Below, piece after piece: positions 3,010 to 61,494 of a stretch of 64,000 nt of DNA. Position 1 is the stretch's first letter, and every line of letters starts with the position of its first letter. Location of the stretch: assembly GCA_965237805.1 (NCBI GenBank), contig OZ250153.1, positions 96,001 through 160,000 of the forward strand. The letters are read 5' to 3'. Made by a program: the position numbers and the translations under genes. The stretch is from Gammaproteobacteria bacterium (GTDB taxonomy: Bacteria > Pseudomonadota > Gammaproteobacteria > JABABF01). The notes beneath the pieces were generated by a model. The model was not told the DNA's origin. It worked only from the letters and a program-made list of their open reading frames with translations, and searched no databases.

Positions 3010-4836
3010 ATGCCCACCCAGACCCACTCTTTGCGCGATCTCCACGTCTATTTACGCGTGTTGCGCATGAGCTTGGTCAATCGCGGTATCTGGGCGGGCT
3101 GCATCGGTTCTTTCGTGCTGTTTTCGCTGAGTTCGGTGCTGTTCGCCGACGGCATGCAATTGGCGATGAATGCGCTGAGTGACCATCCGCTCAAAGAAAC
3201 ACGCAGCGTGTTGGCGCTAGGTTTGCGCGATTGGGTCGAACCGATGTTCGCCAATCCCGACGCCCGGCGTGTGCAGATCCCGTTGCTGTTGCTGTTGATG
3301 TTGGTGTTGCGCAGTGTCGGCTTCGCCGGTAGTGAGTTCGGTATCCGCTACCTGTCTTCGCGTTTGGTGCACGAATTGCGTTGCCAGATCGCCGACAAAT
3401 TGTTGCAGGTTCCAGGTCACTTTTTTGATCGGCACCCCGATGGGCACTTGATCTCAACACTGAACTACAAAGTGCAGCAGATCACTGATAGTAGCGCCCA
3501 AGTGGCGCTGATCGTGCTGCGCGAAGGGGTCACCGCTATCGCCTTCCTGTCCTACATGCTCTACCTCGATTGGCGGCTATCTTTGGTCTGTCTGGCAACC
3601 GCACCCTTGCTGTTGCAGCTGACTCGCTCCGTGGCGCGACGACAGCGGATGCTGGCTAGGCGTCTGCAGGGCACGATGGGCGATCTGACCCATATCACCG
3701 GCGAGGTGGTGCGTGGCAATCAAGAAATACGCATCTTTGGTGCCCAAGCGCTGGAGAGCGCACGCTTTGACCAGAGCAGCAACGACTTCCGCCAACAGAG
3801 TAACAAGATCTCACTGGCCAACAGCTTGCTACAGCCGGGAACCCATCTATTGATCACGCTACCGTTGTTATTTCTATTTTGGTACTTGTTGGATCCGGCG
3901 CGGGCTGGCAGTTTCAGCCCGGGGGCATTGACTGCTTTTCTGGTGGCGGCCATTCTGCTCGCGCGCCCGGTGCGGCGTCTCAGCCAAGTCATCGAGCAGT
4001 TGCAACAGGGGCTGGCCGCCGCCGAGGATATTTTCCAGCTGCTCGATGAAGAGACGGAACCGGACCGTGGCGATCAGCGTCTCCAAGCCGCTGATCTCCG
4101 CTTGGAATTTCGCCATGTCAATTTTTCCTACGCCGTCGGCGACGGCGAGGGCGCGGTGGTGCTGAGCGACATCAACTTTGTGGTGGAGCCAGGGCAGATT
4201 GTCGCCATCGTCGGCAGAACCGGGGCGGGGAAAAGTACCTTGGTGCGCTTGATGACCCGACTCTATCATCCGAGTGGTGGCCAGATATTGATCGGTGGCC
4301 AAGATACCGCCAATGTGCGCATCAGCGATGTGCGTCAACAGTTTGCCGTGGTGTCGCAACAGCCGGTGCTATTCAACGACAGCATCTACAACAACATCGC
4401 TTTTGGTGAATTGCGTGACTGCAGCGCTGAGGAGGTGCGTGATGCCGCCGCTCGCGCCCACGCGGTGGAATTCATCGACCGCCTCCCCGGTGGCTTTGCA
4501 GCCTCTGTGGGCAATCAGGGGACGCTGCTCTCCGGTGGGCAGAAGCAGCGCATCGCCGTGGCTCGGGCGTTGATGAAAGGTGCTCCTTTTCTGATACTCG
4601 ACGAGGCCACCTCAGCTTTGGATAACGAGACCGAGCAACAGCTGCGCACGGTGTTGCAAGATGTCTCCAGCGGGCACTCGGTGATCATCATTGCTCATCG
4701 TCTGAATTCGGTGCGCAATGCCGATCTGATTTTGGTGCTGGACCGCGGTCGCATCATCGAGCGTGGTCGGCATCGCGAGCTGCTTGAGCAGGATGGGCTC
4801 TACGCCCGCTTAGCGCGCGAAGAGCTGCAGCCGTGA
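3010..4836 (+). CDS. msbA: Lipid A export ABC transporter MsbA
   Basis: ABC TM domain plus NBD (GRTGAGKST, LSGGQKQR, LDEATSALD); followed by lpxK; ATG at 3010 chosen. Confidence 0.9.
   Translation: MPTQTHSLRDLHVYLRVLRMSLVNRGIWAGCIGSFVLFSLSSVLFADGMQLAMNALSDHPLKETRSVLALGLRDWVEPMFANPDARRVQIPLLLLLMLVLRSVGFAGSEFGIRYLSSRLVHELRCQIADKLLQVPGHFFDRHPDGHLISTLNYKVQQITDSSAQVALIVLREGVTAIAFLSYMLYLDWRLSLVCLATAPLLLQLTRSVARRQRMLARRLQGTMGDLTHITGEVVRGNQEIRIFGAQALESARFDQSSNDFRQQSNKISLANSLLQPGTHLLITLPLLFLFWYLLDPARAGSFSPGALTAFLVAAILLARPVRRLSQVIEQLQQGLAAAEDIFQLLDEETEPDRGDQRLQAADLRLEFRHVNFSYAVGDGEGAVVLSDINFVVEPGQIVAIVGRTGAGKSTLVRLMTRLYHPSGGQILIGGQDTANVRISDVRQQFAVVSQQPVLFNDSIYNNIAFGELRDCSAEEVRDAAARAHAVEFIDRLPGGFAASVGNQGTLLSGGQKQRIAVARALMKGAPFLILDEATSALDNETEQQLRTVLQDVSSGHSVIIIAHRLNSVRNADLILVLDRGRIIERGRHRELLEQDGLYARLAREELQP
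3841..3890. other. Intragenic AT-rich island (weak) in msbA
   Basis: 18/50 GC (36%); codons CTA, TTA, TTT CTA TTT; partly explained by a hydrophobic TM segment. Confidence 0.4.
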
Positions 4837-5855: not shown

Positions 5856-6631
5856 GCGCAAGTCCGCGCTTCAGTGTCATCATTCCGGCGCGGCTGGAGT
5901 CGACCCGTTTGCCAGACAAGGTGTTGCTGGACATCGGCGGGCGGACGATGCTGCAACGGGTCTATGAGCAGGCGCTTAAAAGTGGTGCGGTGCGCGTTGT
6001 TATCGCCACCGACAATCCGCGCATCGCCGCCGTTGCCGACGGCTTTGGTGCCGAGTCCTGTATCACTTCCGCGCGGCACAATTCTGGCACTGAGCGCATC
6101 TGCGAAGCGGTGGCAAAACTGGCATTGCAGCCGACGGAGACGGTGGTCAATCTGCAGGCAGACGAGCCGCTGGCACCGCCGGAAGCCATCGGGCAAGTCG
6201 CTGCGGTATTGGCGGCGGGCGATGAGATGGCGACGCTGTGTGTGGCGATCGCTAGCGCCGACGAACTGCGTTCCCCAGCTGTTGTCAAAGTGGTGGCGGA
6301 CGGTGCCGGGCGGGCGCTCTACTTCAGCCGTTTGCCGATCCCGTGGGCTGGGGCATCCGGCGACGGTGCCAGCTTGCCGTCGGACGGTCTGTGGATGCGG
6401 CATATCGGCATCTATGCCTATCGGGTCTCGCTGTTGCGCCGCTGGGCTGAGTTGGGGCCCTCAGCGCTTGAGCGTAGCGAGTGTTTGGAGCAATTGCGTG
6501 CGCTATCGGCAGGTGTCCTGATCCGGCTTGCCGTCGTGCGGGAATCCTTTCCACCCGGTGTCGATACCGCCGCCGATTTGGAGCGCGTGCGCCACCACTT
6601 TGCCAGCGTCACCGACCATGGCGCAGATTGA
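5852..6631 (+). CDS. kdsB: 3-deoxy-manno-octulosonate cytidylyltransferase
   Basis: IIPARLESTRLPDK, SGTERI, VNLQADEP, HIGIYAY, LEQLRAL; GTG start overlapping the lpxK stop. Confidence 0.95.
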   Translation: MSASPRFSVIIPARLESTRLPDKVLLDIGGRTMLQRVYEQALKSGAVRVVIATDNPRIAAVADGFGAESCITSARHNSGTERICEAVAKLALQPTETVVNLQADEPLAPPEAIGQVAAVLAAGDEMATLCVAIASADELRSPAVVKVVADGAGRALYFSRLPIPWAGASGDGASLPSDGLWMRHIGIYAYRVSLLRRWAELGPSALERSECLEQLRALSAGVLIRLAVVRESFPPGVDTAADLERVRHHFASVTDHGAD

Positions 6632-8217: not shown

Positions 8218-10076
8218 GCGTGGCTGCAGCTTTCGATCCCAAGGCCTTTGTGCGCACCCTGGGCACGGGGCCGGGGGTCTACCAGATGTTGGATGCGGAG
8301 GGAGTGGCGTTGTATATCGGCAAGGCGCGCCAGCTGCGCCACCGCGTTGGCAGCTATTTCCAAAGCCATGGTCTGGAGACGCGCACGATGCGCATGCTGT
8401 CCCGCGTCTGCAGCATCCAGGTGACGGTTACCGCCAGCGAGACCGAGGCGCTACTGCTGGAGCAAAATCTGATCAAGCGCCATCGCCCGCGCTACAACAT
8501 CTTGCTCAGAGATGATAAGTCTTATCCTTATCTATATCTTTCAGAAGGACAATATCCAAGAATTTCCATGCGCAGGACGCGCCGATCCAAGCGTGTCGCT
8601 GGGCGCTACTTTGGCCCTTATCCAAGCGCTTCGGAGCTGCGCCACAATCTGAATTTCCTGCACCGAGCTTTTCAGTTGCGCCAGTGTACAGACAGTGTTT
8701 TCCACCACCGTACTCGACCCTGCCTGCAGTATCAGATCGGGCGCTGCACAGCACCCTGTGTCGGTTTGATCAGCGAGCGGGGCTATGCTGGCGATGTGCG
8801 CGATGCGGTGTTGTTCCTCGAGGGCGGTGGCCAAGCCTTGCAAGGCCAGCTGGCCGACCGCATGGAGCAGGCCTCCAAGGACTTGGCATTCGAGCGCGCC
8901 GCCGCGTTGCGCGATCGCATTGCGGCGCTGCGGCGCATGCGCGAGCGCCAGAGTGTGGACAGCACCCGCAGTGGCGGTGACGCCGATGTTGTGGCCTTGG
9001 TCGAGGAGGGCGGCATGCACTGTGCTCAGTGGTTACAGGTGCGCGATGGGCATGTCAGCTCCAGCCACAGCTACTTTCCACAATTGCCGCTGAGCGATGG
9101 TGCGACCAGCCTGCTCAGCGCCTTTGTGCCGCATCTGTACCTGGGTGGGGGCGGGCGCGAAATCCCCCGCGAATTGCTGCTGAGCGCAGAGCCCGACAAC
9201 GCCTCATTGTTGGCCGCAGCACTGGGGCGAGCTGCGGGCAAGCGGGTGCGCATCTCCAGTCCGAAACGTGGTCTGCGCGGGCGCTGGCTCCAGCTGGCGC
9301 TCAACACCGCGTGGGAGAATCTGCGCGGCTTCGCCAGCGGCGGGCAGCGTTTGGGGCATCAGCGCGAGGCGCTGGCGAAGGCGCTGGGGTGCAGCGCTAC
9401 GCCAGAGCGCATTGAAGCTTTCGATGTCAGCCACGGCGGCGGGCGGCACACGGTGGCCTCTTGCGTGGTGGCCGGGGTGGATGGCCTGCGCCCGGCCGAG
9501 TACCGCCGTTTCAATATTCGCGACGCCGCTCCCGGCGATGACTTGGCAGCGCTGCGCGAGGCGCTGGAGCGGCGCTATCTGCGTGGTAGCAGGGCGCGCA
9601 GTGCCCAGCTGCCAGATCTGTTGTTGGTGGACGGCGGCGCGGCGCAGCTGCGCGCAGCGCTTGCGGTGCTGTCCCAGCTGGCTGAGGACGGTGCCTGCGT
9701 CGAGGTGGTCGGTATCTCAAAAGGGGTTTCGCGCCGTCCCGGTTGGGAGCAATTGCACCGCGCGGATGGGCGGAGCGTGGCGCTGCCGCCGGACAGCGAG
9801 GCGCTACACCTGCTACAGCGCTTGCGCGACGAGGCCCACCGCTTTGCCATAGCTGGGCAGCGCCGCCGCCAGCGCCGAGCCGCCGGTTCTGGGCTCGAGC
9901 ACATCGCGGGTATCGGCCCGGCGCGGCGGCGCTCCTTGCTGCGCCATTTCGGTGGCTTGCGGGCATTGCAGCGGGCTTCTAGGGAGGAAATCGTCCGCGC
10001 ACCGGGCATGGGCGACAAACTCGCCACCACCGTTTGCGAGGCGCTCTCGGAACCAGCTCGCATGGCGGACGAATAA
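8214..10076 (+). CDS. uvrC: Excinuclease ABC subunit C
   Basis: GIY-YIG domain (GVYQM..LYIGKA), RDDKSYPY, Cys cluster, RDEAHRFAI, HhH. Confidence 0.96.
   Translation: MSVAAAFDPKAFVRTLGTGPGVYQMLDAEGVALYIGKARQLRHRVGSYFQSHGLETRTMRMLSRVCSIQVTVTASETEALLLEQNLIKRHRPRYNILLRDDKSYPYLYLSEGQYPRISMRRTRRSKRVAGRYFGPYPSASELRHNLNFLHRAFQLRQCTDSVFHHRTRPCLQYQIGRCTAPCVGLISERGYAGDVRDAVLFLEGGGQALQGQLADRMEQASKDLAFERAAALRDRIAALRRMRERQSVDSTRSGGDADVVALVEEGGMHCAQWLQVRDGHVSSSHSYFPQLPLSDGATSLLSAFVPHLYLGGGGREIPRELLLSAEPDNASLLAAALGRAAGKRVRISSPKRGLRGRWLQLALNTAWENLRGFASGGQRLGHQREALAKALGCSATPERIEAFDVSHGGGRHTVASCVVAGVDGLRPAEYRRFNIRDAAPGDDLAALREALERRYLRGSRARSAQLPDLLLVDGGAAQLRAALAVLSQLAEDGACVEVVGISKGVSRRPGWEQLHRADGRSVALPPDSEALHLLQRLRDEAHRFAIAGQRRRQRRAAGSGLEHIAGIGPARRRSLLRHFGGLRALQRASREEIVRAPGMGDKLATTVCEALSEPARMADE
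8511..8570. other. Intragenic AT-rich island in uvrC
   Basis: 19/60 GC (32%) versus 38/60 (63%) at 8581-8640; conserved RDDKSYPY encoded by AGA GAT GAT AAG TCT TAT CCT TAT. Confidence 0.8.
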
Positions 10077-10179: not shown

Positions 10180-10758
10180 ATGATTCAACTATCGCTACCC
10201 ACCCTGTTCACCTTATTGCGCATCGCGTTGGCACCCTGTTTGGTGGTCGCGCTGTGCATGCCCGATGGGCGCGGCTGGCCAGCGGCGGCAATTTTTCTGT
10301 TGGCTATTGCCACTGACTGGCTGGATGGTTATCTGGCCCGCCGTCTGAAATTGGAGACGGCTTTCGGAGCCTTTCTCGACCCGGTGGCAGACAAGATCTT
10401 GGTCGCCACCGCGCTGGTCTTGTTGTCGGCGATCATGCACTCGCTGTGGTTTGCCGTGCCAGCGGCGATTATCGTCGGGCGCGAAATCGCTGTATCGGCG
10501 CTGCGCGAATGGATGGCCAGCGGCAAACAACGTCCCTCAGTGCTGCGCATCGCCAAGTATAAGACGATTTTTCAATACATCGCGATTACCTTGTTTTTGC
10601 TGTTGAGCGACGATAAGGCAACGGGGGCGATGGATGCCATGGATCAGATGGAATTGCAGATGGTTGCCTATGCCATGCTCTATACAGCTGCTGGGCTGAC
10701 ACTCTATTCAATGGCCCGCTATTTAGTTGCCGCTTGGCGGCAACGCCAGCGAGCCTAG
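10180..10758 (+). CDS. pgsA: CDP-diacylglycerol--glycerol-3-phosphate 3-phosphatidyltransferase
   Basis: TDWLDGYLAR...FGAFLDPVADK motif; follows uvrC. Confidence 0.95.
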   Translation: MIQLSLPTLFTLLRIALAPCLVVALCMPDGRGWPAAAIFLLAIATDWLDGYLARRLKLETAFGAFLDPVADKILVATALVLLSAIMHSLWFAVPAAIIVGREIAVSALREWMASGKQRPSVLRIAKYKTIFQYIAITLFLLLSDDKATGAMDAMDQMELQMVAYAMLYTAAGLTLYSMARYLVAAWRQRQRA

Positions 10759-10833: not shown

Positions 10834-10907
10834 GGCTGGATGGCAGAGTGGTCATGTAGCGGACTGCAACTCCGTGTACGCCGGTTCGATTCCGGCTCCA
10901 GCCTCCA
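10834..10907 (+). tRNA. tRNA-Cys(GCA)
   Basis: GGCTGGA/TCCAGCC acceptor stem, GCGGA-CTGCAAC-TCCGT anticodon arm, GGTTCGATTCC T arm, encoded CCA. Confidence 0.96.
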
Positions 10908-12807: not shown

Positions 12808-13587
12808 ATGCTGCGCGTGATCACATTCAATGCCAACGGCATCCGTGCGGCTGCTCGCAAAGGCTTTTTTGAATGGTTGGCGCGGCAGCGCGCCGATGTG
12901 GTCTGTGTGCAGGAGACGCGGGCGCGTGAGGAACAGCTCGATGCCCGCCACTTTTACCCAACCGGTTATCAATGCTGGTACTACGAGGCCCAAACCCCGG
13001 GCTACAGCGGCACCGCGTTGTACAGCCGCGTCGCGCCCAAGCAGCTCAGTCGCGGCATGGGTTGGGATCCGATGGATTCGGAGGCGCGTTGTTTGCGCGC
13101 CGATTACTCGCAGCTGAGCATCCTATCTCTGTACCTGCCATCGGGCTCATCAGGGCCGGAAAAACAAGAGAAAAAATTCTTTGTAATGAATAGATTATAT
13201 GAAGAATTTAAGGTGATAATAGAGTCTGGTCTGGAGTGTATACTCTGCGCTGACTGGAATATTTGTCACCGCCCCATCGATCTGAAAAACTGGCGTGCCA
13301 ACCAAGGCAATTCTGGTTTCCTGCCCGAAGAGCGTGCGTGGATGGGAAGCTTGCTGGAAGAGCAGGGCTGGGTGGACAGTTTCCGCGCCTTGCACCCCGA
13401 GCTGGCAGCCTACACTTGGTGGTCCAACCGCGGGCGGGCGCGCGAAAATAATATCGGCTGGCGTCTCGACTACCAGCTGGTCACGCCGCAGCTGGCGCGG
13501 GCGGTGCGCGGTGCCGAGATCTGCCGTTCGCCACAATTCTCAGATCATGCGCCGTTGATCATGGATTATGATGTCAGTCTCAGTTAG
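12808..13587 (+). CDS. xth: Exodeoxyribonuclease III / AP endonuclease
   Basis: NANGIRAA, QET, DWN, GWRLDY, SDHAP catalytic residues intact. Confidence 0.9.
   Translation: MLRVITFNANGIRAAARKGFFEWLARQRADVVCVQETRAREEQLDARHFYPTGYQCWYYEAQTPGYSGTALYSRVAPKQLSRGMGWDPMDSEARCLRADYSQLSILSLYLPSGSSGPEKQEKKFFVMNRLYEEFKVIIESGLECILCADWNICHRPIDLKNWRANQGNSGFLPEERAWMGSLLEEQGWVDSFRALHPELAAYTWWSNRGRARENNIGWRLDYQLVTPQLARAVRGAEICRSPQFSDHAPLIMDYDVSLS
13161..13220. other. Intragenic AT-rich island in xth
   Basis: 12/60 GC (20%); codons AAA AAA TTC TTT GTA ATG AAT AGA TTA TAT GAA GAA TTT AAG GTG ATA ATA. Confidence 0.85.
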
Positions 13588-24488: not shown

Positions 24489-26655
24489 GACGGGCTACCG
24501 TCCGCCCGCCGCCAGTCACGACGACTGGGAGCAGCTGGCCCGGCGCGAATGCAAAGGCGAATCTCCGGACACGCTGGCGCGGGAAATCAGTGAGGAGATC
24601 AAGCTGCGCGCGCTCTACACCCACGCGGACATTGAAGACTTGTCCACCGTCGACACCATGCCAGGTTGCGAGCCTTTTCTGCGCGGCCCCAGGGCCACCA
24701 TGTATGCGCGGCGACCGTGGACTATTCGCCAGTACGCTGGCTTTTCCACCGCCGAAGAATCCAATGCCTTCTACCGACAGAGCTTGGCCGCGGGCGGGCA
24801 GGGCATTTCGGTTGCCTTTGACCTCGCCACCCATCGCGGCTATGACTCCGATCATCCGCGCGTTGCTGGTGATGTCGGCAATGCTGGCGTCGCTGTAGAC
24901 AGCGTCGAGGATATGAAGCGCCTATTCGACGGTATCCCCTTGGATGAAGTGTCGGTGTCGATGACGATGAACGGTGCCGTCTTGCCGGTGATGGCTGGTT
25001 ATATCGTCGCCGCCGAGGAGCAGGGGGTGGAGCAAGCCCAGCTGTCCGGCACCATCCAAAACGATGTGCTGAAGGAATTCATGGTGCGCAACACCTACAT
25101 TTATCCTCCCGATCCATCGATGAGAATCGTCGGCGATATGGTGAGTTACACAGCGCAACATATGCCGAAATTCAACTCCATTTCGATCTCTGGATATCAT
25201 CTCCAAGAAGCGGGTGCCGACCCCGCCCTCGAGCTGGCCTATACCTTGGCGGATGGCAAGGAATATATTCGTACCGCGCTAGCCACCGGCCTCGACATTG
25301 ATCAATTTGCGCCGCGGCTGTCATTCTTTTTTGGCATCGGCATGAATTTCTATCTGGAGATCGCCAAACTGCGTGCGGCTCGGCTGCTGTGGGCGCGTAT
25401 CGTCGACGAGTTCAAACCGAAGTTGGCGCGCTCCAAAATGCTGCGCACCCACTGCCAGACTTCGGGTTGGTCACTGACCGAGCAGCAGCCGTTGAACAAT
25501 GTGGTGCGCACCACGATCGAAGCCATGGCTGCGGTCTTTGGCGGCACCCAGTCGCTACATACCAACGCGCTGGACGAGGCGGTGGCGCTGCCGACCGAAG
25601 AGTCGGCGCGAGTCGCCCGCAATACCCAATTGATCCTGCAGGAAGAGAGCGGCATCAGCGGGGTCGTCGATCCGTGGGGTGGCTCCTATATGATGGAATC
25701 ACTGACCCACAGTTTGTCTGAGCGCGTCTGGCAGCTGATCAGCGAGGTCGAAGAAGCTGGCGGGATGGCCAAAGTGATCGGCAGTGGTGAGCCCAAACGT
25801 CGCATCGAGGCCGTGGCAGCGCGGCGTCAAGCGCGCATCGACCGCTGCGAGGAAGTGGTGGTCGGCGTCAACCGCTATGTTTTGGACACCAGCTCGCAAG
25901 AATCGGAGATCGAAGTGCGAGAAGTGGACAATCGGGCGGTGCGCGAGCTACAAGTGCAACGCTTGGTCGAGCTGCGCGCAGCCCGCGATGAAGCCGCTGT
26001 ACAAGCCGCTTTGGAGGCGTTGGAGCGCGCAGCCCGCGATGACGATGACGGTGCTAATCTGCTCGAGTTGTCGGTGGCGGCAACTAGGCTGCGAGCCACT
26101 GTCGGCGAGATCAGCGAGGTGCTGGAGCGGGTGTGGGGACGTCATGACGGCGCGGTCAGCTTGGTGTCTGGTGTCTATGGTGGCGGGCGGCAACAGGATG
26201 GAGAATGGCATGAGATGACGGGCGAGGTGCAGGAATTTGAGCGGCGATACGGGCGCCGCCCGCGCATGCTGGTGGCGAAAATGGGGCAGGACGGACACGA
26301 TCGTGGTGCCCGCGTGATCGCCAGCGCCTTCGCCGATCTGGGTTTTGATATCGACCTCTCGCCGATGTTCGCCACACCGGCAGAAGTGGCGCGCCAAGCC
26401 TTGGAAAACGATGTCCACGCTGTCGGCATTTCCTCGCAGGCGGCGGGACATAAAACTTTGGTGCCCGAGCTGATCGCCCAGCTTAAAGCGCAGGGTACCG
26501 GGGACATCACCATCATCGTCGGCGGGGTGATCCCGCGACCGGACTACGACTTCCTGCGCCGCGCTGGTGTGGCGGCGATTTTCGGGCCCGGTACGCCGAT
26601 TCCCAGCGCGGCGCGCGAAGTGTTACAAGCGATTCGCGCCGCGCTGCCCGGCTGA
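24481..26655 (+). CDS. scpA: Methylmalonyl-CoA mutase (B12-dependent)
   Basis: [34 protein letters not shown]12-binding DGHDRG. Confidence 0.96.
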
Positions 26656-36904: not shown

Positions 36905-39388
36905 ATGGAGCAGGAGCCGTTGGTGCCGGCTGAGAGCGATCGGCACGGCCTCCACTGGCGGCGTGAATTATTGCCGCTGGCGCTCGCTGTAGCCGCCTGC
37001 TATCTGCTGGCGGCGATGCTGAGTTACACGCCGTCCGATCCGGCGTGGACCACCAGCGGTAGCGGTGGTGGCCCGATTGGCAATTGGGGGGGGCCAGCTG
37101 GCGCTTGGTTGGTCGATGTGTTGTTCCACACTTTTGGCCAAGTCTCTTATTTGTTGGCGGTGGCACTGCTGGGTGTCAGCTATCAGCTGTTGCGCGGCGG
37201 CAGTTGGCGCTGGCATGGCATGGCGGGGCGCAGCTTGGCACTGGTGGTGTTTCTGTGCACGAGCTGTGCCCTCGCCGCGTTGGTGGCGGGGGAAATTGCA
37301 CCGGTAGCAGGTGGCGGCATGGCTCAGCTATTTGGTCCGCCGCAGGCTTTTTGCTCAGCGGTCGAAGGACCTTTGCCCTGTGGTGCTGGCGGCTTTGTGG
37401 GCTTGGAACTAGGGCGACGGGTGGCGGGTAGCTTTGGCGGTTTCGGGGCGCGTTTGTTGCTGTCCGCTGCCGCACTGCTGAGCCTGTCTTGGGTCGCACA
37501 CTTGTCTTGGTTGGCGACCACTGCGCGTAGTGGCGATTGGTTGCGGCGTGCGCTGGGTGCCGTGCTGGCCTGCGCTGCCCGCTTGGCGCTTTGGCTGGCT
37601 ACAGTCGGTCGGCGCGCGGGCACCTCACTGTGGACTGTGTTGCGTTACCGCAGCGGGCGGCTCATCGCCGCAGCGACCGCTCTCAAGCGGGTGTCGTCAG
37701 CTGTGCCGACACCAGTGACGGTGGCGCATTCGGACGATGCCGCGCCGCCATCCCCGTCATCGCCCGCGCCCCATCTCAGCACGGCAGCGATGCCGCCGGT
37801 AGCGCCAGTGCCAGCACGTCGCCCACCCGCCAAGGTGGCGCAGCGGGTCAAAGCGGGGGGCATGCCCTCCATCGAGTTGCTGGATCAGAGCAAAATCAAA
37901 GAGGATGTAGCTATCAGACGCGAGGAGTTGGCGGCGCTGGGTCAGCGCCTAGAGGGGCGCCTGAGTGATTTTGGCATCAGTGCCGAGGTGGTGTCGATCC
38001 ACCCGGGGCCGGTGATCACGCGCTTTGAAATCCGTCCGGCGGCAGGTATCAAAGTCAGCCGTATCAGTGCGTTGGCAAAGGATTTGGCGCGTTCGCTGGC
38101 GGTCATCAGTGTGCGTGTCGTCGAAGTGATTCCCGGGAAGTCGGTGGTCGGTATTGAGGTGCCCAACGAGCACCGCCAGCTGGTCACCTTGCACGATGTG
38201 TTGGCCTCGTCGGTCTGGCGCGAGTCGACCGCACCGCTGAGCTTTGCGCTCGGACACGACATCTCTGGGCGACCGGTGGTGGTCGATCTAAGCAAGATGC
38301 CGCACCTGCTGGTGGCGGGCACCACTGGCGCTGGTAAATCGGTGGGCATCAATGCCATGCTGCTCAGCCTGCTGCTCAAATCGCCGCCCGAACAAGTGCG
38401 CCTGATCTTGGTCGATCCAAAAATGCTTGAGCTGGCAGTCTATGAAGGCATCCCGCACCTGTTGACGCCGGTGATCACCGATATGAAAGACGCCGCCCGC
38501 GGCCTGCGCTGGTGTGTCGCCGAAATGGAGCGTCGCTATCAGCTGATGGCCGCGCTGGGTGTGCGCAATATGGATGGCTACAATCGCCGTGTGCGACAGG
38601 CGTTGGAGGCGGGTCAAGCCATGCACTTGGGGAGCGACGGCGTGTTGCTAGAGCACGACGACGAAGCGCTGGTGCCACCAGAGGAACTGTCCGCCGCGCT
38701 GGAGCCATTGCCTTTCATTGTTGTTGTCATCGACGAATTCGCCGATATGATGATGATCGTCGGCAAAAAAGTCGAGCAGCTGATCGCCCGCATCGCTCAG
38801 AAAGCACGAGCTGCTGGTATTCATCTGGTCTTGGCGACTCAGCGCCCCTCGGTTGATGTCATCACCGGCTTGATCAAAGCCAATATTCCCTCGCGCATCG
38901 CCTACCAAGTGCCGGCCAAGGTCGATGCGCGCACGATCATGGATCAGGCTGGTGCCGAGCAGCTGCTGGGGCATGGCGATATGCTCTACCTGCCAGCTGG
39001 TGGTAGCGTGCCGATGCGTGTGCACGGTGCCTTCGTTGCGGACGATGAAGTGCACCGAGTGGTAGCAGTTTGGAAAAAACAAAGTGAATCCAATTATTTA
39101 TCCGAAGTGCTTGAAGGTGTTATGCATGAAAATACAGGCGACTTCTCGTTGCCGGATAGCCGTGACGGTGGCTCCGAGAATGACGCAGCTGATCCGCTCT
39201 ACGATCAGGCGCTGAGCTTTGTCGTCTCATCGCGGCGCGGCTCGATCTCGGCCGTACAGCGCAAATTGCGCATTGGCTACAACCGTGCTGCCCGTCTGCT
39301 CGAAACCATGGAGCAGACAGGCGTGGTCAGCGCGATGGAGAGCAACGGCAGCCGCGAAGTATTGGCACCGGAGCCGCAGGAGGATTAG
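36905..39388 (+). CDS. ftsK: DNA translocase FtsK
   Basis: N-terminal TM domain, Pro-rich linker, [27 protein letters not shown], gamma domain [11 protein letters not shown]. Confidence 0.96.
39071..39130. other. Intragenic AT-rich island in ftsK
   Basis: 20/60 GC (33%); TGG AAA AAA CAA AGT GAA TCC AAT TAT TTA ... GTT ATG CAT GAA AAT ACA. Confidence 0.75.
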
Positions 39389-45875: not shown

Positions 45876-47930
45876 TTACAATTGCCGCAACGCGATGAAA
45901 TCCAACAAAAGTTCGGCGCTTTCGTGCAATAGCGGTTTGGCATCGGCATCGTATTGGCGCAGATCGTTGAGCAATTTGTGCTCTTGCTCGCGCTGCTGAG
46001 ATAGCTGGCGACGCCCTTGCTCCCACAACGGGATGCGTGTGTCTTGTTGCTTGTGTTGTTTGAAGAGCTCGGCGCGCTTTCTGAGGTATTGAAACTCGGG
46101 CTGCTGTGCTGTGCGCACACGGTGCTGCCGACGCAGCTCGGGCAGATAGCGATCGATATCGTAGTAATGGCGATGGCGCACCGAGGCGATGAGATCCCAT
46201 TGCATGGCATTGTCCAAGCTGCTCTCGCCAATTTCAGCAGCATCGTAACTGGGCGGAAAGAGCACATCTGGTTTGATGCCATGCAGTTGAGTGCTGTCTC
46301 CGGAAATGCGGTAGAACTTGGCGTCGGTCAGCCTCACTTGGCCAGCGCTCAGACTTTGCAAAGACTGCACAGTGCCTTTGCCGTAGGAGGGAGTGCCGAT
46401 GATCAGACCGCGGTCGTAATCCTGTATCGCGGCGGTAAAAATCTCGGCAGCGGAAGCGCTGAGACGGTTGATCAGCACCACTAGTGGCCAGTCGTAATAA
46501 GGCCCCCGGCGGATCTTCCCTTGGCGCAGTATGTGGTTGTTGCTCTGGCGCACTTGGACCACCGGGCCTTGGGAGATGAACAGGCCGGTGAGTGCGTTTG
46601 CCTCCTGTAGCGAGCCGCCACCATTGCCGCGCAAATCGATGATCAGGCCGGTGATGCCATCGTCGTGTGCTTGATTTGTTTCGTCTTGCTGACGCATTTC
46701 GCTGAGCAGGCGTAGCACGTCCCGCGTCGTGCTGCGGTAACCGACCTCACCGTTTTCGTAGGCGCGGAAATCCAAATAAAAGGAGGGGATGCGCAGTACG
46801 CCGATGCGGTAGGTGCTACTGCTGCGGCGTAGTTCGATCACTTGGCTCTGTGCGGCTTGGCTCTCCAATTTGACACTATCGCGCACGATCGACACCACCC
46901 GCGTGCCCGTGGCATCAGTGATTTCGGCACCCGGTGCCAATAGCCGCAGACGCACGGTGCTGCCGCGCTCACCGCGTATGCGCGCGACGACATCATCCAG
47001 CCGCCAGCCGGTGACCTGAACGAAGTCGCCAGCGTCCCCTTGGGCGATGGCAACGATATGGTCACCAGCCTTCAATTCCCCTTGATGCTCTGCTGGCCCG
47101 CCCTTGACCAGCTGCACCACCTGGGTGTAATCGCCGTTGCGACGCAGGGTGGCACCGATGCCCTCTAACGATAAGCTCATCGAGATGCGAAAATTTTCAG
47201 AGGATCTTGGTGACATATAATATGTATGTGCATCATATAATTGTGCGTATGAATTAAGGAATAAATTGACCACATCGTCGGCTTTCATTTCGTGCGTACG
47301 ATCGCGTTCGGTCGTGATTTGTTGGCGCAGCTTGATCAATTGTGTCGCTGTGCTCTCGCCGCTGATAATCAATCCCAGCAGTCGGTGTTGTAGGCGTTGT
47401 CGCCAGCGTTCGCTCAATGCGGCATCGTCAGCCGCCCATGGTCGCTTGCCGGGATCGGACAGTAAATATTCTTCGTGTTGCAGCTGCAGAGTCGCCACGC
47501 GTGATTCCAAGCTGGCCAACTCTAAGTCGAGCAGGCTGAGCAGACGCTTGCGATAGTAGTTAAAAATAGTGAAGGCTGGCACCAGATTGCCAGCGCGCAA
47601 GGCATCATCGAGCGATTTTCGGTGTTGGCCAAAGGCGGCGACATCGCTCTTGCGGAACACTAGGCGTTCTCCGTCCACCTTGTCCACATAGCTTGCTAAG
47701 AGGCGCTCGGACAGGGCATCGTCCACTGATATTTTGAGGTAGTGGCGAGCCCGTAAGCGTTGTGTGAGCTCGCGCGTTACCCGCTGGTGTTGCAGGCTTG
47801 GCATCAAATGTTCTACTTTGTTGATAGCGACGGCGGGCGAGTCCTTGGCCATTGCTGTTGTGAAGAGGGCAGTTGCGCAGCTCGCCAACCCGAATGCGAT
47901 GCCCAGCCGCAATCGACGATGATTTAACAT
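45876..47930 (-). CDS. prc: Tail-specific periplasmic protease Prc (S41)
   Basis: Signal peptide, DAHTYY, LEGIGA, PDZ domain, DLRGNGGGSL, SASAAEI, GKGTVQ, KFYRISG; start ATG 47930 (alternatives GTG 47948, TTG 47912). Confidence 0.94.
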   Translation of the reverse strand: MLNHRRLRLGIAFGLASCATALFTTAMAKDSPAVAINKVEHLMPSLQHQRVTRELTQRLRARHYLKISVDDALSERLLASYVDKVDGERLVFRKSDVAAFGQHRKSLDDALRAGNLVPAFTIFNYYRKRLLSLLDLELASLESRVATLQLQHEEYLLSDPGKRPWAADDAALSERWRQRLQHRLLGLIISGESTATQLIKLRQQITTERDRTHEMKADDVVNLFLNSYAQLYDAHTYYMSPRSSENFRISMSLSLEGIGATLRRNGDYTQVVQLVKGGPAEHQGELKAGDHIVAIAQGDAGDFVQVTGWRLDDVVARIRGERGSTVRLRLLAPGAEITDATGTRVVSIVRDSVKLESQAAQSQVIELRRSSSTYRIGVLRIPSFYLDFRAYENGEVGYRSTTRDVLRLLSEMRQQDETNQAHDDGITGLIIDLRGNGGGSLQEANALTGLFISQGPVVQVRQSNNHILRQGKIRRGPYYDWPLVVLINRLSASAAEIFTAAIQDYDRGLIIGTPSYGKGTVQSLQSLSAGQVRLTDAKFYRISGDSTQLHGIKPDVLFPPSYDAAEIGESSLDNAMQWDLIASVRHRHYYDIDRYLPELRRQHRVRTAQQPEFQYLRKRAELFKQHKQQDTRIPLWEQGRRQLSQQREQEHKLLNDLRQYDADAKPLLHESAELLLDFIALRQL
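47211..47270. other. Intragenic AT-rich island in prc
   Basis: 16/60 GC (27%); minus-strand codons AAT TTA TTC CTT AAT TCA TAC GCA CAA TTA TAT GAT GCA CAT ACA TAT TAT. Confidence 0.85.
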
Positions 47931-47949
47931 AATATATATTCTACGCACA
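47922..47949 (-). other. dif site (XerCD chromosome dimer resolution)
   Basis: TGTGCGTAGAA-TATATA-TTATGTTAAAT: XerD arm identical to that of E. coli dif, XerC arm 8/11 to GGTGCGCATAA; KOPS polarity flips across it. Confidence 0.93.
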
Positions 47950-56321: not shown

Positions 56322-58084
56322 GTTGGCCAGCCGTACACATCGCGTGGTATCGCCAGTCGCAGTCGATGCGCTGCTATGCCACGCCTGCCGCTTGGCTGGT
56401 GCTCAGCACCCTATTTCTTGTTGCCTGTAGCAGCGACAGGCAGCTGCGCGAAGATGCGGTGACCCGTGGTAACCGAGCGAAAATCCTGCATATGGGCATC
56501 GGCGCAGAGCCCCAAGCCTTGGATCCGCACATCGTCACCGGCGTCACCGAGAGCCGCATCATCCACTCACTGCTGGAAGGCTTGGTTGGCAAGGACCCGG
56601 CGTCACTGGACGCTATACCTGGCGTAGCTAACTCTTGGAATATCGCTGATAATAAAACTACTTACACTTTTAATTTCAGGGAAGATGCAAAGTGGAGCAA
56701 CGGCGATACGGTGCGGGCTCAGGACTTCGTTTTTTCGTGGCGCAGGTTGCTCTCACCCGCATTGGCGGCCGAGTATGCATACAACTTATATGTTGTCAAA
56801 AATGCCCGTGATTACCATCGCGGCACCCTCAAAGATTTTGACAAAGTCGGTGTGCGTGCCATCGACGACCGCACGCTGGAAGTGCGCCTCGAGCATCCTG
56901 CCCCCTATTTTCTGCAACTGCTCGATCACACCAGTGCCCTGCCTGTACACCCTGCCACCATTGAGGGCCACGGTGCCACCCTGCGGCGTGACACCGATTG
57001 GACCCGACCCAAATCCTATGTCGGCAACGGTCCATTTCAGCTGGAGACATGGCAGATTGGCGAGGGCATTTTTGTTCGTAAAAACCGATATTACTGGGAC
57101 TATGACGGTGTCCAGCTGAATGGCATCCAGTTCTACCCGGTGGAAAATCAAAATACCGAGGAAAATATGTTCCGCTCTGGGCAGCTGCATATCACTAGCG
57201 GCGTGGCGATTCCCTATGTGCCGCTGTATTTAGAAAAACGCCCCGACCTGATCCGTATATCGCCTTATCTGGGCACTTATTATTACGAGCTAAATGTCAG
57301 TAAACCGCCGCTGGATGACCTGCGCGTGCGCCGCGCACTGATGTTGGCCACCGACCGCTACAGCATCACGGCGGCGATCACCCAAGCGGGCCAGAGGCCG
57401 GCCTATTCCTTCACGCCGCCGCTGCTCTCTGGTTACCGACCGCCGTCGGATCGCAGCCTCGCTTACAACCCCAAGCGTGCGCGCCGTCTGTTGGCCGAGG
57501 CGGGTTATCCCGGCGGTTTGGATTTTCCGGTGTTGCAGCTGTTGTACAACACCAGCGACGACCACCGCACACTGGCTGTCGCGATTCAGGAGATGTGGCA
57601 GAAGAACCTCGGTATTAAGGTCGAATTGAACAATCAGGAATGGAAGGTCTACCTCAACACGCGCAATAATTTGGAGCATCAAATCGCCCGTGCGGGCTGG
57701 GTTGCGGACTTTGAAGACCCGAGCAATTTCTTGGAAGTGTTGAGTGGCGACAGTGGCAATAACCGTTCGGCTTGGTCCAATCCGGAATACGACCATCTCG
57801 TCGCACGAGCCAAGCGTACATGGGATAGCGAAAAGCGCAACGAGCTCTTTGCCCGCGCCGAACGGCTGATGATCTCGCAAGCGCCGATCATTCCGATCTA
57901 CCACTATGCCAGCAAGCGCCTGTTGCGCCGCTCGGTGGTTGGCTGGAGTAGGAATGCACTGGATCACCAGCGCTACCAAGAGCTCCACTTGCTGGACAAT
58001 CCGAGTAGGCAGGAGCCCAAGGAGTCCCCGCAAGCGGGTGCTGCACCAGCGCAGGTCTTGCCGCAGCCGGGCGCAACGCGATAG
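56318..58084 (+). CDS. oppA: Oligopeptide ABC transporter substrate-binding lipoprotein
   Basis: Lipobox LVAC, EPQALDP, EGLV, AKWSNGD, GNGPF, RAGWVAD; start uncertain. Confidence 0.9.
   Translation: MSWPAVHIAWYRQSQSMRCYATPAAWLVLSTLFLVACSSDRQLREDAVTRGNRAKILHMGIGAEPQALDPHIVTGVTESRIIHSLLEGLVGKDPASLDAIPGVANSWNIADNKTTYTFNFREDAKWSNGDTVRAQDFVFSWRRLLSPALAAEYAYNLYVVKNARDYHRGTLKDFDKVGVRAIDDRTLEVRLEHPAPYFLQLLDHTSALPVHPATIEGHGATLRRDTDWTRPKSYVGNGPFQLETWQIGEGIFVRKNRYYWDYDGVQLNGIQFYPVENQNTEENMFRSGQLHITSGVAIPYVPLYLEKRPDLIRISPYLGTYYYELNVSKPPLDDLRVRRALMLATDRYSITAAITQAGQRPAYSFTPPLLSGYRPPSDRSLAYNPKRARRLLAEAGYPGGLDFPVLQLLYNTSDDHRTLAVAIQEMWQKNLGIKVELNNQEWKVYLNTRNNLEHQIARAGWVADFEDPSNFLEVLSGDSGNNRSAWSNPEYDHLVARAKRTWDSEKRNELFARAERLMISQAPIIPIYHYASKRLLRRSVVGWSRNALDHQRYQELHLLDNPSRQEPKESPQAGAAPAQVLPQPGATR
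56631..56690. other. Intragenic AT-rich island in oppA
   Basis: 19/60 GC (32%); TCT TGG AAT ATC GCT GAT AAT AAA ACT ACT TAC ACT TTT AAT TTC AGG. Confidence 0.75.
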
Positions 58085-58118
58085 CTCGCGCCCTCCCCGC
58101 TAGACGGGTGCCACGGCG

Positions 58119-59908: not shown

Positions 59909-59910
59909 CC

Positions 59911-61494
59911 ATGGCTCTTTTGGAGTTGCGCCAGCTCGGTGTGCATTTTCCCGATAAGACCGTGGTGCGGGATTTGGATCTCAGCTTGGAGCGTGGTGCG
60001 ACTATCGGCATTATCGGCGAGTCTGGCTCTGGCAAATCGCTGAGCGGTTTGGCCTGTTTGGGGCTGTTGCCACCGACGGCGCGTGCCTCCGGCAGCATCC
60101 GCTTCGATGGCGAGGAACTGCTGAACATGCCGCCGAGGCGGCTCATCCAGCTGCGCGGGCGACGCATCGCCATGGTGTTTCAAGATGCCGGTACGGCTCT
60201 GACCCCTTGGCTGCGCATCGGCACGCAGTTGACCGATCCGATGCGCAACCATTTGGCGATTGGGCGTCGCGAGGCGCAGCGTCGGGCAGTGGTGGCGTTG
60301 GAGGAAGTCAGCATGCCGGAGCCGGAGCGTGCGCTCAGCCACTACCCACACGAGTTTTCCGGTGGTCAGCGTCAGCGCATCCTCCTCGCCATCGCCTTGG
60401 CGGGGCAGCCGGACTTGCTGATTGCAGACGAGCCGACCACCGCCCTCGATGTCACTATCCAAGCGCAGATCTTGGAATTGTTGAGCGCTCTGCAACGCGA
60501 GCGTGGCTTGGCTTTGCTGTTCATCTCACACGATTTGGCAGTGGTCAACCAAATTGCCGAAAACGCTGTGGTCATGGATGCTGGCGAGGCAGTGGAGCGC
60601 GGTCCGGTGTGGCAGCTATTTCAGTCGCCGCAACATCCCAGCACCCGTGCTCTGATGCGCGCCATCTCCCGTCGCGGTGCGATATCTCATCCGGGCACCC
60701 CGCGCCCGAGCGCAGCTGGCTCAGCCGCGCTGAGTATCAGAGGTCTGCGGGCTACTTACAGCCAGCGCACTCAGCCACAGGGCGTGTTGCACGGCATTGA
60801 TCTGGAGCTGCGCCGTGGCGAGATCGTCGCCTTGGTCGGTGAGTCTGGTGCTGGCAAATCGACGCTGGCGAGGGTGCTGTTGCAGTTGTTGCCCGCCAGC
60901 AGCGGCGAGCTGCGGATCGATGGCAAGCTGCTGAGTGCGGCTACTGGAGTGCGCCGCCAGAACCGCTCAGGGGTGCAGATGATCTTCCAAGATCCCTACG
61001 CTTCGCTCAATCCACGGCTCAGTGTTGAGGAGGCGCTGGCTGAGCCGATACGCTTCCACGGACTGGCGGCCAGCGGTGCTGAATTGACGGCGCGCGTGGT
61101 GGCGCTACTCGCCGCGGTGGGGCTGGACGCCTCCGCTGGCAGCCGTTATCCCCATGCCTTTTCCGGTGGTCAGCGCCAGCGCATCGCCATCGCCCGCGCA
61201 CTGGCTACCGAGCCAGAGCTGCTGGTGGCAGACGAGCCAGTCTCGGCTCTCGATATCGTCACCCAGTGCGAGATACTCGAATTATTGTTTAGAATCATCA
61301 CCGATAGGAGTATGTCGATGTTGTTGATCTCACACGATTTGGAAATGGTGCGTGGCTTGGCTGACTACACTGCTGTGATCCACGGCGGTGTGCTGGTAGA
61401 GCAGGGTCCGACCGAGCAGCTGTTTGCGGCACCGCGCGACGCACAGACCCGTCGCCTGCTGGCGGCCAGCCCCTCTTTGCCCGCCACTCGATGA
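59911..61494 (+). CDS. Fused OppD/OppF ABC ATPase
   Basis: Two NBDs (GESGSGKS / GESGAGKST), each with YPH.FSGGQRQR and ADEP. Confidence 0.92.
   Translation: MALLELRQLGVHFPDKTVVRDLDLSLERGATIGIIGESGSGKSLSGLACLGLLPPTARASGSIRFDGEELLNMPPRRLIQLRGRRIAMVFQDAGTALTPWLRIGTQLTDPMRNHLAIGRREAQRRAVVALEEVSMPEPERALSHYPHEFSGGQRQRILLAIALAGQPDLLIADEPTTALDVTIQAQILELLSALQRERGLALLFISHDLAVVNQIAENAVVMDAGEAVERGPVWQLFQSPQHPSTRALMRAISRRGAISHPGTPRPSAAGSAALSIRGLRATYSQRTQPQGVLHGIDLELRRGEIVALVGESGAGKSTLARVLLQLLPASSGELRIDGKLLSAATGVRRQNRSGVQMIFQDPYASLNPRLSVEEALAEPIRFHGLAASGAELTARVVALLAAVGLDASAGSRYPHAFSGGQRQRIAIARALATEPELLVADEPVSALDIVTQCEILELLFRIITDRSMSMLLISHDLEMVRGLADYTAVIHGGVLVEQGPTEQLFAAPRDAQTRRLLAASPSLPATR
61281..61330. 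other. Intragenic AT-rich island in the oppD/F ATPase gene
   Basis: 17/50 GC (34%); TTA TTG TTT AGA ATC ATC ACC GAT AGG AGT. Confidence 0.6.

What the first reader, a model, noticed from the sequence alone, without database searches (positions are those of the whole stretch)
3841..61330. Recurrent short AT-rich, synonymously recoded islands inside core genes: a possible DNA-level signal layer
Seen: in a roughly 63% GC background, sharply bounded patches of about 50-90 bp drop to 20-36% GC inside msbA (3841), uvrC (8511), xth (13161), clpA (33481), ftsK (39071), prc (47211), oppA (56631) and oppD/F (61281), with a weaker one in scpA (about 25090-25210). The reading frames and conserved motifs are intact, but codons switch to AGA/TTA/ATA/TAT/AAT. 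Most gaps are about 4.6-9.4 kb, with one longer gap in which the AT-rich cysH-thrH intergenic region falls. Several islands contain GATAA/TTATC. Inference: amino-acid composition alone does not explain this, so the DNA itself appears to be under selection. Candidates are nucleation sites for an AT-binding bridging nucleoid protein (H-NS/MvaT/Lsr2-like) at loop-domain spacing, internal promoters forced into genes by loss of intergenic space, unwinding elements, or micro-recombination tracts from low-GC donors via ComEC. I know of no named feature class that matches.
Basis: partly seen in the sequence, partly recalled or inferred. Interest (0 to 1): 0.78.

Follow-up and report, generated by a model that had tools for sequence, protein, structure and literature searches.

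The report
AT-rich gene patches clustered around dif
Short, sharply bounded AT-rich patches inside otherwise GC-rich housekeeping genes are real here, are kept AT-rich in a sister species, and cluster around the site where chromosome replication ends, which points to a DNA-level process rather than a protein or translation effect.

Summary
Seven of the nine reported patches are real. uvrC, xth, prc and ftsK beat a gene-wise synonymous-shuffle null at p<=0.0005. clpA, oppA and the oppD/F-like gene reach p=0.012-0.044. The msbA and scpA (methylmalonyl-CoA mutase) patches do not (p=0.77, 0.65).

Regular spacing is not supported (p=0.22) and no shared motif was found.

The new result is position. 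With my filters, 17 of 21 such islands in this 1.73-Mb genome lie within 135 kb of the unique dif site (window 47922-47948). A scan statistic gives P<0.0005. A family relative of another genus shows a weaker dif-centred maximum (P=0.016-0.026). A half-sampled third genome shows none by count.

Six strong islands sit at the same codons in a same-genus relative. There, A/T third positions are retained at 0.82 against 0.51 in the background, yet the exact base is no better conserved than elsewhere.

Held-out codon pairs show that composition, not codon rarity, is what shifts. Amino acids in the islands also shift towards AT-rich codons.

No H-NS, Lsr2, GapR, MatP or Tus homologue was found.

Best reading: these are composition-defined, easily melted DNA sites maintained in the terminus zone. 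Whether they are adaptive or a self-reinforcing mutational by-product is open. This scan had not noted the pattern on other DNA.

The parts
8508..8564 (+). uvrC island: codons 99-117, 18 of 19 A/T-ending, GC 0.30
   Evidence: S=16.4; 0 of 2000 shuffles. Shared with same-genus G001. Absent in 5 other relatives and in 52 GC-rich metagenomic uvrC genes.
13147..13230 (+). xth island: codons 114-141, GC 0.31 (60-bp minimum 0.20)
   Evidence: S=14.6; 0 of 2000 shuffles. Not shared with G001 (zB -1.3). Amino acids here are also shifted to AT-rich codons relative to G002.
33474..33587 (+). clpA island (weaker): codons 268-305, GC 0.42
   Evidence: S=10.8, p=0.012. Not shared with G001.
39056..39136 (+). 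ftsK island: codons 718-744, GC 0.36, near the C-terminal end of the 827-residue protein
   Evidence: S=17.4, p=0.0005. Shared with G001 (zB -5.05). Contigs of two runs cover it without differences.
47166..47267 (-). prc island: codons 216-249, GC 0.31, 0.7 kb from dif
   Evidence: S=19.8; 0 of 2000 shuffles. Present at the same place in G001, G002 and G003, each about 0.8-0.9 kb from that genome's dif. A sigma-70-like match lies antisense at 47194-47221.
56612..56689 (+). oppA-like island: codons 83-108, GC 0.37
   Evidence: S=12.0, p=0.016. The G001 alignment did not cover it.
61271..61340 (+). Weak patch in the fused oppD/F-like ABC ATPase gene
   Evidence: S=9.3, p=0.044. Not shared with G001.
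47922..47948 (-). dif (XerC/XerD recombination site): the centre of the island cluster
   Evidence: One match per genome in G000-G003 and 0 matches to the reversed control. Resemblance to E. coli dif is recalled, not from a call.
3841..3900 (+). Claimed msbA patch: not an island
   Evidence: minimum GC 0.42, S=5.2, p=0.77
25090..25210 (+). Claimed scpA (methylmalonyl-CoA mutase) patch: not an island
   Evidence: minimum GC 0.42, S=5.2, p=0.65

Best explanation
The patches are composition-defined DNA-level features of the replication-terminus zone. They are 45-126 bp stretches inside ordinary core genes whose synonymous sites, and to some extent whose amino acids, are held at A/T. They are concentrated within about 130 kb on either side of dif.

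Shown:
- They exceed a synonymous-shuffle null.
- They are dif-centred.
- They persist at the same codons in a congener, and for prc across the family, although most 4-fold sites have turned over.
- What is retained is A/T-ness, not the exact base.
- Composition, not codon rarity, is what shifts.

Inferred mechanism: these are the most easily melted sites of their neighbourhood, since intergenic spacers here are not AT-rich. The terminus zone is where converging forks and FtsK translocation load DNA with torsional stress. That stress opens these sites.

The A/T state is then kept in one of two ways. Either such torsion-absorbing sites are useful there, or repeated opening exposes cytosines to deamination, so a patch that has become AT-rich stays AT-rich. 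I rate the self-reinforcing, non-adaptive version slightly more likely than the adaptive one. The data here cannot separate them.
For: Excess over the null: AT-segment score S>=14 gives 15 against 1.4+-1.2. In genome 0-260 kb it gives 9 against 0.2.

Position:
- 17 of 21 filtered islands lie within 135 kb of dif, where 16.7% of coding sequence lies (p=1.8e-10).
- A centre-free scan puts the best 270-kb window at 115-145 kb, with dif at 143.9 kb. None of 2000 simulations reached it.
- A model-free count agrees: of 12 sites with 80-bp GC<=0.36 inside typical genes, 10 lie within 135 kb of dif. Density is 5.0, 4.0, 1.4 and 0 per 100 kb at 0-50, 50-100, 100-135 and 135-500 kb.
- Second genome G002 (another genus, different gene order, 77% sampled): 11 of 25 within 135 kb (p=0.0012). 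Its scan maximum flanks its dif (P=0.026 and 0.016).

Maintenance:
- uvrC, ftsK, prc, two lon islands and sucA are shared with G001.
- P(A/T third base in G001 | A/T in G000) is 74/90 in these islands against 1958/3844 in the background (p=6.5e-10).
- A-versus-T identity is 23/33 in islands against 576/828 in the background, both 0.70.
- Nucleotide identity is 0.748 against 0.708.
- Background 4-fold identity is 0.44 against 0.285 expected at random.

Composition rather than rarity: held-out D/K/N/Y codons are A/T-ending in 100/137 against 0.46, and AGA outnumbers AGG 8 to 2.

Amino-acid shift: aa-imposed GC relative to G002 is -0.040 inside islands against +0.014 in the rest of the gene (n=16, p=0.0017).

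Discrete, not graded: there is no general link between aa-imposed GC and synonymous GC. Yet in the terminus zone 8 of 57 AT-rich-context windows have z<-3.5, against 0 of 206 elsewhere.

Neighbourhood: intergenic spacers average GC 0.59-0.60, so the islands are the local minima of duplex stability.
Against: - The melting and torsional-stress step is inference only. I ran no duplex-destabilisation calculation, and no structural or expression data exist for this uncultured organism.
- The third genome, G003 (0.8 of 2.0 Mb sampled), shows no enrichment by count: 4 of 11 within 135 kb where 38.8% of sampled coding sequence lies (p=0.68). It does have the prc island, and its six lowest-GC islands (GC 0.22-0.33) all lie in the 400-kb block fetched around dif; that is a post-hoc observation.
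- Only one congener exists in the genome collection, and no close relative turned up in metagenome contigs (best 50% identity).
- Island filters (S>=10, GC<=0.45, codon >25, <=45 codons) and the 135-kb radius were set after seeing the data. The scan statistic and the model-free count soften this but do not remove it.
- Genes were called with my own crude caller.
- AT-rich DNA elsewhere in the genome (85 uncalled or intergenic sites and 32 sites in atypical genes) would melt as easily, so a role specific to the terminus is not self-evident.
- Spacing within the zone is random-like (CV 0.82, p=0.32). This does not favour competition between sites within fixed domains.
Confidence: 0.4

Rival explanations
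1. The islands are landing pads for an unidentified protein that prefers AT-rich DNA and organises or services the terminus domain. This would be a functional analogue of MatP/matS, or of GapR-type recruitment of topoisomerases. The islands were built inside genes because the zone has little AT-rich non-coding DNA.
For: - The distribution is dif-centred and covers about 14-16% of the chromosome.
- A/T-ness is retained across species.
- The terminus zone holds only 8 of the 117 AT-rich sites that lie outside typical genes, so intragenic sites would be the only option there.
Against: - No shared motif beyond composition-matched shuffles. At k=10, 12, 14 and 16 the best totals were 87, 100, 109 and 122, against control maxima of 87, 100, 111 and 121.
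- The exact base is no better conserved than in the background.
- No H-NS, MatP, Tus, GapR or Lsr2 homologue was found in G000, which is 97.4% complete.
- A protein that reads only composition would also bind the many AT-rich regions elsewhere.
Confidence: 0.18
2. The islands are internal or antisense promoters placed inside genes because intergenic space is short.
For: - The prc island holds a 10-of-12 sigma-70-like match on the antisense strand (47194-47221).
- The ftsK island lies about 260-330 bp upstream of the next gene, whose start follows the ftsK stop by 3 bp.
Against: - Only 1 of the 5 islands in the two scanned stretches has a consensus match. Total matches equal the shuffle expectation (5 against 4.8; 8 against 5.8).
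- Islands lie at any relative position in their genes, for example codons 99-117 of 620 and 254-285 of 946.
- Promoters would not be expected to cluster around dif.
Confidence: 0.07
3. The islands are conserved rare-codon clusters that slow translation for co-translational folding.
For: - The islands are rich in rare codons (AGA, TTA, CTA, TCT, GGA).
- Six keep their position in a congener.
- Position-specific conservation of rare-codon clusters is a described phenomenon (PMC5438181; search listing and start of abstract only).
Against: - Codon pairs of near-equal usage shift as strongly as rare ones, and AGA is preferred over the equally rare AGG.
- Of the 16 terminus-zone islands with a G002 orthologue in the sampled part, 15 have no counterpart there.
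- 0 of 52 GC-rich uvrC genes show the uvrC island.
- Amino acids also shift towards AT-rich codons.
- A translational feature has no reason to cluster around dif.
Confidence: 0.05
4. The islands are short gene-conversion tracts imported from low-GC donors.
For: - Borders are sharp.
- Amino acids inside some islands (xth, lon island 1) look AT-shifted and diverge from relatives.
Against: - Six islands predate the G000/G001 split.
- With background 4-fold identity at 0.44 against 0.285 at random, an unmaintained import should have decayed towards GC3 of 0.6-0.7. Instead A/T is retained at 0.82-0.85.
- The prc island persists across the family.
- I ran no donor search, because such old events leave no near-identical donor.
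Confidence: 0.05
5. The patches are assembly or polishing artefacts.
For: None found.
Against: - An independently assembled congener has islands at the same codons but with different sequence.
- Contigs of two public runs cover the ftsK and prc islands, and the only listed differences lie elsewhere (41477, 43473, 48734). Both runs come from one sample, which may be the source, so this is weak support.
Confidence: 0.02

Closest known systems
Regional AT enrichment and lower GC3 around the replication terminus
   Same: The zone within 135 kb of dif has a lower synonymous GC. Mean z is -0.22 against +0.09 elsewhere, and 4-fold GC3 is about 2-6 points lower (about 2-3 in the well-populated context bins) in every context bin compared. 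A passage in PMC3091660 states that the region around the terminus is more AT-rich. I recall Daubin and Perriere 2003 on the same point but did not read it.
   Different: The known effect is a gradual regional trend. Here the striking part is a set of discrete, sharply bounded 45-126 bp patches with GC3 near 0.05-0.3 inside genes whose flanks have normal GC3.
MatP/matS Ter macrodomain of enterobacteria (recalled: Mercier et al. 2008)
   Same: A few dozen sites, many of them inside genes, confined to a dif-centred zone that covers roughly a sixth of the chromosome.
   Different: matS is a defined 13-bp palindrome read by MatP. Here there is no motif and no MatP gene.
Conserved rare-codon clusters (PMC5438181; listing and start of abstract only)
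   Same: Clusters of rare synonymous codons inside coding sequences, conserved in position between homologues.
   Different: Here composition, not rarity, is selected. Conservation is limited to the genus except for prc, and the clusters are tied to chromosome position.
AT-rich targets of xenogeneic silencers (H-NS, MvaT, Lsr2) and GapR binding sites
   Same: Short AT-rich tracts in a GC-rich genome, recognised by composition and shape rather than by motif.
   Different: Those targets are mostly foreign DNA or the 3' ends of highly transcribed genes. Here they lie in vertically inherited core genes, and no H-NS, Lsr2 or GapR gene was found. MvaT was not tested.
Stress-induced duplex destabilisation (SIDD) sites (recalled: Benham and co-workers)
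   Same: The size range and the property of being the AT-richest segment within several kb.
   Different: SIDD sites are typically intergenic, at promoters and terminators. Opening was not computed here, and a terminus-specific, intragenic, evolutionarily maintained set has not been described in the papers my searches reached.

Membership tests
Conserved rare-codon clusters | Local excess of rare synonymous codons over a synonymous-shuffle null | tested here: met
Conserved rare-codon clusters | Position conserved across homologues | tested here: inconclusive
   Kept in the congener for 6 islands. Only prc has a counterpart among the 16 terminus-zone islands with a G002 orthologue. 0 of 52 GC-rich uvrC genes show the uvrC island.
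Conserved rare-codon clusters | Codon rarity, not base composition, is what is selected | tested here: not met
   Held-out D/K/N/Y codons are A/T-ending in 100/137 against 0.46. AGA 8 against AGG 2.
MatP/matS Ter macrodomain | Sites confined to a dif-centred zone | tested here: met
MatP/matS Ter macrodomain | Shared palindromic motif | tested here: not met
MatP/matS Ter macrodomain | MatP gene present | tested here: not met
   PF06303: 0 matches in G000
Tus/Ter fork trap | Tus gene, and oriented consensus sites that flip at the terminus | tested here: not met
   PF05472: 0 matches. No motif. No strand-skew flip at dif.
Xenogeneic-silencer targets (H-NS / Lsr2 / MvaT) | Silencer gene present in the genome | tested here: not met
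   PF00816 and PF11774: 0 matches. MvaT was not tested, because the H-NS model did not ring in the control genomes other than E. coli.
Xenogeneic-silencer targets (H-NS / Lsr2 / MvaT) | Targets are horizontally acquired AT-rich DNA | tested here: not met
   The islands lie in core genes with normal flanks and with orthologues in relatives.
Regional terminus AT enrichment | Gradual decline of GC3 towards the terminus | tested here: met
   The islands are a discrete tail on top of it.
SIDD sites | Predicted strand opening at physiological superhelicity | not tested
   No calculation was run. Only the composition minimum is shown.
Recombination (mosaic) tracts | A donor lineage with matching DNA, and decay after import | tested here: not met
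   A/T is retained at 0.82-0.85 against 0.49-0.51 in the background. The donor search was not run.

The most novel reading that the evidence does not exclude
Bacteria of this lineage, and perhaps many GC-rich bacteria that lack MatP, mark or service their terminus domain with a previously undescribed class of element. These are motif-less, composition-defined AT-rich patches written into the synonymous sites, and partly the amino acids, of core genes. Their density peaks at dif. They would act as torsional-stress sinks or as protein landing pads during fork convergence, decatenation and FtsK-driven segregation.
Probability: 0.25. Interest if true: 0.85.

Novelty: new variant of a known kind. 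Interest (0 to 1): 0.66.

Why it matters
If the dif-centred clustering holds in other genomes, it shows that chromosome position can rewrite the synonymous sites, and even the amino acids, of housekeeping genes in discrete patches. That would be either a new kind of terminus-domain signal or a new position-dependent mutational regime.

Either outcome bears on several open questions:
- how terminus domains are organised in the many bacteria without MatP or Tus;
- what maintains GC content;
- how 'silent' sites should be read in codon-usage and selection analyses.

The claim can be tested purely by computation on complete genomes with an identifiable dif site.

Tried and rejected
- Raw low-GC window counts against the shuffle null are nearly uninformative, because amino acids dominate.
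- My first gene set included over-extended 5' ends and wrong-frame stretches that produced false 'islands'. I recalled genes with start trimming.
- The first motif script timed out. The rerun found no motif.
- There is no general positive feedback between aa-imposed AT and synonymous AT.
- A-T and G-C skew of the islands shows no flip at dif.
- The search of metagenome contigs for closer relatives of UvrC found none (best 50% identity). Those loci served only as a control.
- No RNA holder was listed, so expression and transcription starts could not be examined.
- Laid contigs come from one sample that may be the source.
- Literature searches returned nothing describing dif-centred intragenic AT islands. 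They cover only the held open-access library, and supplements are closed.
- An earlier idea that the organism uses ScpAB was dropped. The 'scpA' here is methylmalonyl-CoA mutase.


Full report
**What is there.**
The window is bases 96,001-160,000 of a single 1,725,584-bp contig with 61.6% GC. Earlier notes of this scan describe the organism as an uncultured gammaproteobacterium (not checked here). Sliding 60-bp windows confirm sharp AT-rich patches in six genes:
- uvrC: 8492-8575, minimum GC 0.30
- xth: 13140-13249, minimum 0.20
- ftsK: 39062-39138, minimum 0.30
- prc: 47164-47294, minimum 0.27
- an oppA-like gene: 56613-56708, minimum 0.32
- a fused oppD/F-like ABC ATPase gene: 61271-61340, minimum 0.35

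NCBIfam confirms the gene names. In uvrC, 18 of 19 consecutive codons end in A or T, while the flanks have normal GC3.

**Is it more than chance?**
A raw count of low-GC coding windows is barely above a null that shuffles synonymous codons within each gene. At GC<=0.30 there are 41 windows against 28.6+-3.8, and at GC<=0.40 there are 303 against 299. Amino-acid composition therefore explains most low-GC windows.

A score that measures only the synonymous shift towards A/T, taken as maximal-scoring segments, gives a different picture. It was run on 1331 typical genes from an improved gene set:
- S>=14: 15 observed against 1.4+-1.2
- S>=12: 20 against 4.2+-1.9
- S>=10: 41 against 16.1+-3.7

Tested one by one against 2000 shuffles of their own gene:
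- uvrC, xth and prc were never reached.
- ftsK has p=0.0005, clpA 0.012, oppA 0.016 and the oppD/F-like gene 0.044.
- msbA (p=0.77) and the mutase (p=0.65) are ordinary; their minimum GC is 0.42.

GATAA/TTATC is marginal, at 10 against 5.1 (p=0.039).

**Not an artefact, and old.**
A same-genus genome, G001, is an independent 290-contig assembly. It shares about 70-75% nucleotide identity and has GC3 of 0.61 against 0.70. It has islands at the same codons in uvrC, ftsK and prc, at two places in lon and in sucA. Reciprocally, both G001 islands found in the window's orthologues coincide with G000 islands (2 of 2). Contigs of two public runs from one sample, possibly the source, cover the ftsK and prc islands with no differences there.

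**What is conserved is composition.**
Between G000 and G001, 4-fold sites are 44% identical against 28.5% expected at random, so most have turned over.
- In the background, an A/T third base in G000 is A/T in G001 in 1958 of 3844 same-residue codons (0.51).
- In the six shared islands the figure is 74 of 90 (0.82, p=6.5e-10). Over all aligned codons it is 108 of 127 against 0.49.
- Where both species have A or T, the base is the same in 23 of 33 island codons and in 576 of 828 background codons (0.70 for both).
- Overall nucleotide identity is 0.748 against 0.708.

The patches are therefore held AT-rich without the sequence being held. A search for shared k-mers among 11 islands did no better than composition-matched shuffles.

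**Composition, not codon rarity.**
I called islands without using D, K, N, Y or R codons, which gave 32 islands, and then looked at those held-out codons.
- The near-equally used pairs (D, K, N, Y) are A/T-ending in 100 of 137 cases against 0.46 in the background (p=2.6e-10).
- AGA outnumbers the equally rare AGG 8 to 2.
- Amino acids shift too. Relative to the aligned G002 residues, the GC imposed by the amino acids is 0.040 lower inside islands and 0.014 higher in the rest of the gene (16 islands, Wilcoxon p=0.0017).
- Islands are not reliably in conserved motifs. Identity to G002 inside them ranges from 0.29 to 0.92.

**The main new finding: position.**
Cumulative GC skew puts the origin near 1.06-1.08 Mb and the terminus near 0.2 Mb. 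A dif-type site lies at window 47922-47948 (genome 143,922-143,948). The pattern matches exactly once in each of G000, G001, G002 and G003, and never in the reversed control. By my recollection of E. coli dif, 24 of 28 positions agree; that figure is recalled, not from a call.

I used one filter throughout: S>=10, GC<=0.45, beyond codon 25, at most 45 codons.
- 17 of 21 islands lie within 135 kb of dif, where 16.7% of typical coding sequence lies (p=1.8e-10).
- A scan that does not assume the centre puts the best 270-kb window at 115-145 kb, with 17 of 21 islands. None of 2000 simulations reached that count.
- Without any codon model, 129 sites have 80-bp GC<=0.36. Of the 12 inside typical genes, 10 lie within 135 kb of dif. 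Only 6 of 85 in uncalled or intergenic DNA do, and only 2 of 32 in atypical low-GC3 genes.
- Density falls from 5.0 to 4.0 to 1.4 to 0 per 100 kb with distance from dif.
- The zone also has a slightly lower synonymous GC overall (mean z -0.22 against +0.09). The islands are a discrete tail on top of this: 8 of 57 AT-rich-context windows have z<-3.5 in the zone, against 0 of 206 outside.
- There is no general feedback between neighbouring amino-acid-imposed AT and third-position AT.

**Replication in relatives.**
G002 belongs to another genus and has a different gene order. I held 1.6 of its 2.08 Mb.
- 11 of 25 islands lie within 135 kb of its dif, where 16.6% of sampled coding sequence lies (p=0.0012).
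- Its scan maximum flanks dif (P=0.026 for 200 kb, 0.016 for 270 kb).
- These islands are in other genes. Of the 16 G000 terminus-zone islands with a G002 orthologue in the sampled part, only prc is AT-shifted there (0.47 against 0.24 gene-wide). This holds even for orthologues that lie near G002's dif.

- It shows no enrichment by count: 4 of 11 islands within 135 kb, where 38.8% of sampled coding sequence lies (p=0.68).
- Its six lowest-GC islands all lie in the 400-kb block fetched around dif. That is a post-hoc remark.

prc sits next to dif in all four genomes. In each it carries the island 0.7-0.9 kb from dif, with A/T-ending codons kept across the family. In 52 GC-rich uvrC genes from metagenomes, the codons aligned to the uvrC island have a median AT3 of 0.26 and a maximum of 0.53.

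**Reading.**
The cause follows chromosome position and acts on base composition.
- This rules out a translational pause as the main explanation, and also recent import.
- It makes promoters unlikely. One of five scanned islands has a sigma-70-like match, and islands lie anywhere in their genes.
- Known AT-preferring or terminus proteins were not found: H-NS, Lsr2, GapR, MatP and Tus gave 0 matches in a 97.4%-complete genome. MvaT was not tested.
- Intergenic spacers here are not AT-rich (0.59-0.60), so the islands are the easiest places to melt in their neighbourhoods.

My best, and inferred, mechanism is that torsional stress in the zone of fork convergence and FtsK activity opens these sites. 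The size and role of that zone in E. coli are recalled from the literature, not read here. The sites then stay AT-rich for one of two reasons. Either they are useful as torsion sinks, or opening promotes cytosine deamination and so perpetuates itself. The main rival is an unknown composition-reading protein of the terminus domain.

**Limits.**
- I used my own gene caller.
- Thresholds were chosen after seeing the data.
- There is only one congener.
- One of three genomes is not significant.
- No RNA, polymorphism or structural data exist for this organism.
- Literature searches cover only the held open-access library, and supplements are closed.
- Of the papers, I saw passages of PMC3091660. 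For PMC5438181 and PMC5993296 I saw only the listing and the start of the abstract.

Noticed in passing
window 47922-47948 (minus strand) and prc start at 47928-47930: The dif site overlaps the likely ATG start codon of prc. prc lies directly beside dif in all four family genomes examined (G000-G003).
   Followed up: partly
window 47194-47221 (+ strand): A sigma-70-like match (TTTTCA, 16-nt spacer, TATAAT; 10 of 12) lies inside the prc island. It is antisense to prc and points towards dif and the next gene.
   Followed up: no
genome 1,069,099-1,069,164 (outside the window): One of the few strong islands far from dif (S=16.1, GC 0.33) lies at the GC-skew minimum, that is, beside the presumed replication origin.
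   Followed up: no
genome-wide; terminus zone about 9-279 kb: The GC-skew maximum (about 200-220 kb at 20-kb resolution) is offset by some 60 kb from dif (143.9 kb). Skew is weak between 160 and 220 kb.
   Followed up: no
genome-wide: The dif zone holds few of the usual AT-rich sites: 6 of 85 in uncalled or intergenic DNA and 2 of 32 in atypical low-GC3 genes, while it makes up 15.6% of the genome. Foreign-looking DNA seems scarce near the terminus.
   Followed up: partly
genome-wide: Intergenic spacers of 40-600 bp average GC 0.59-0.60, about the same as the genome as a whole. This is unusual, because non-coding DNA is normally more AT-rich.
   Followed up: no
window 10834-10907 (+): tRNA-Cys (GCA) lies downstream of pgsA-like ORF 10180-10758. 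It is 93-96% identical to the copies in G002 and G003.
   Followed up: yes
G002:C1 about 420-505 kb and 288-330 kb: The relative G002 has open reading frames of 28,591 and 13,893 codons, containing internally repeated segments. These are giant repetitive genes.
   Followed up: no
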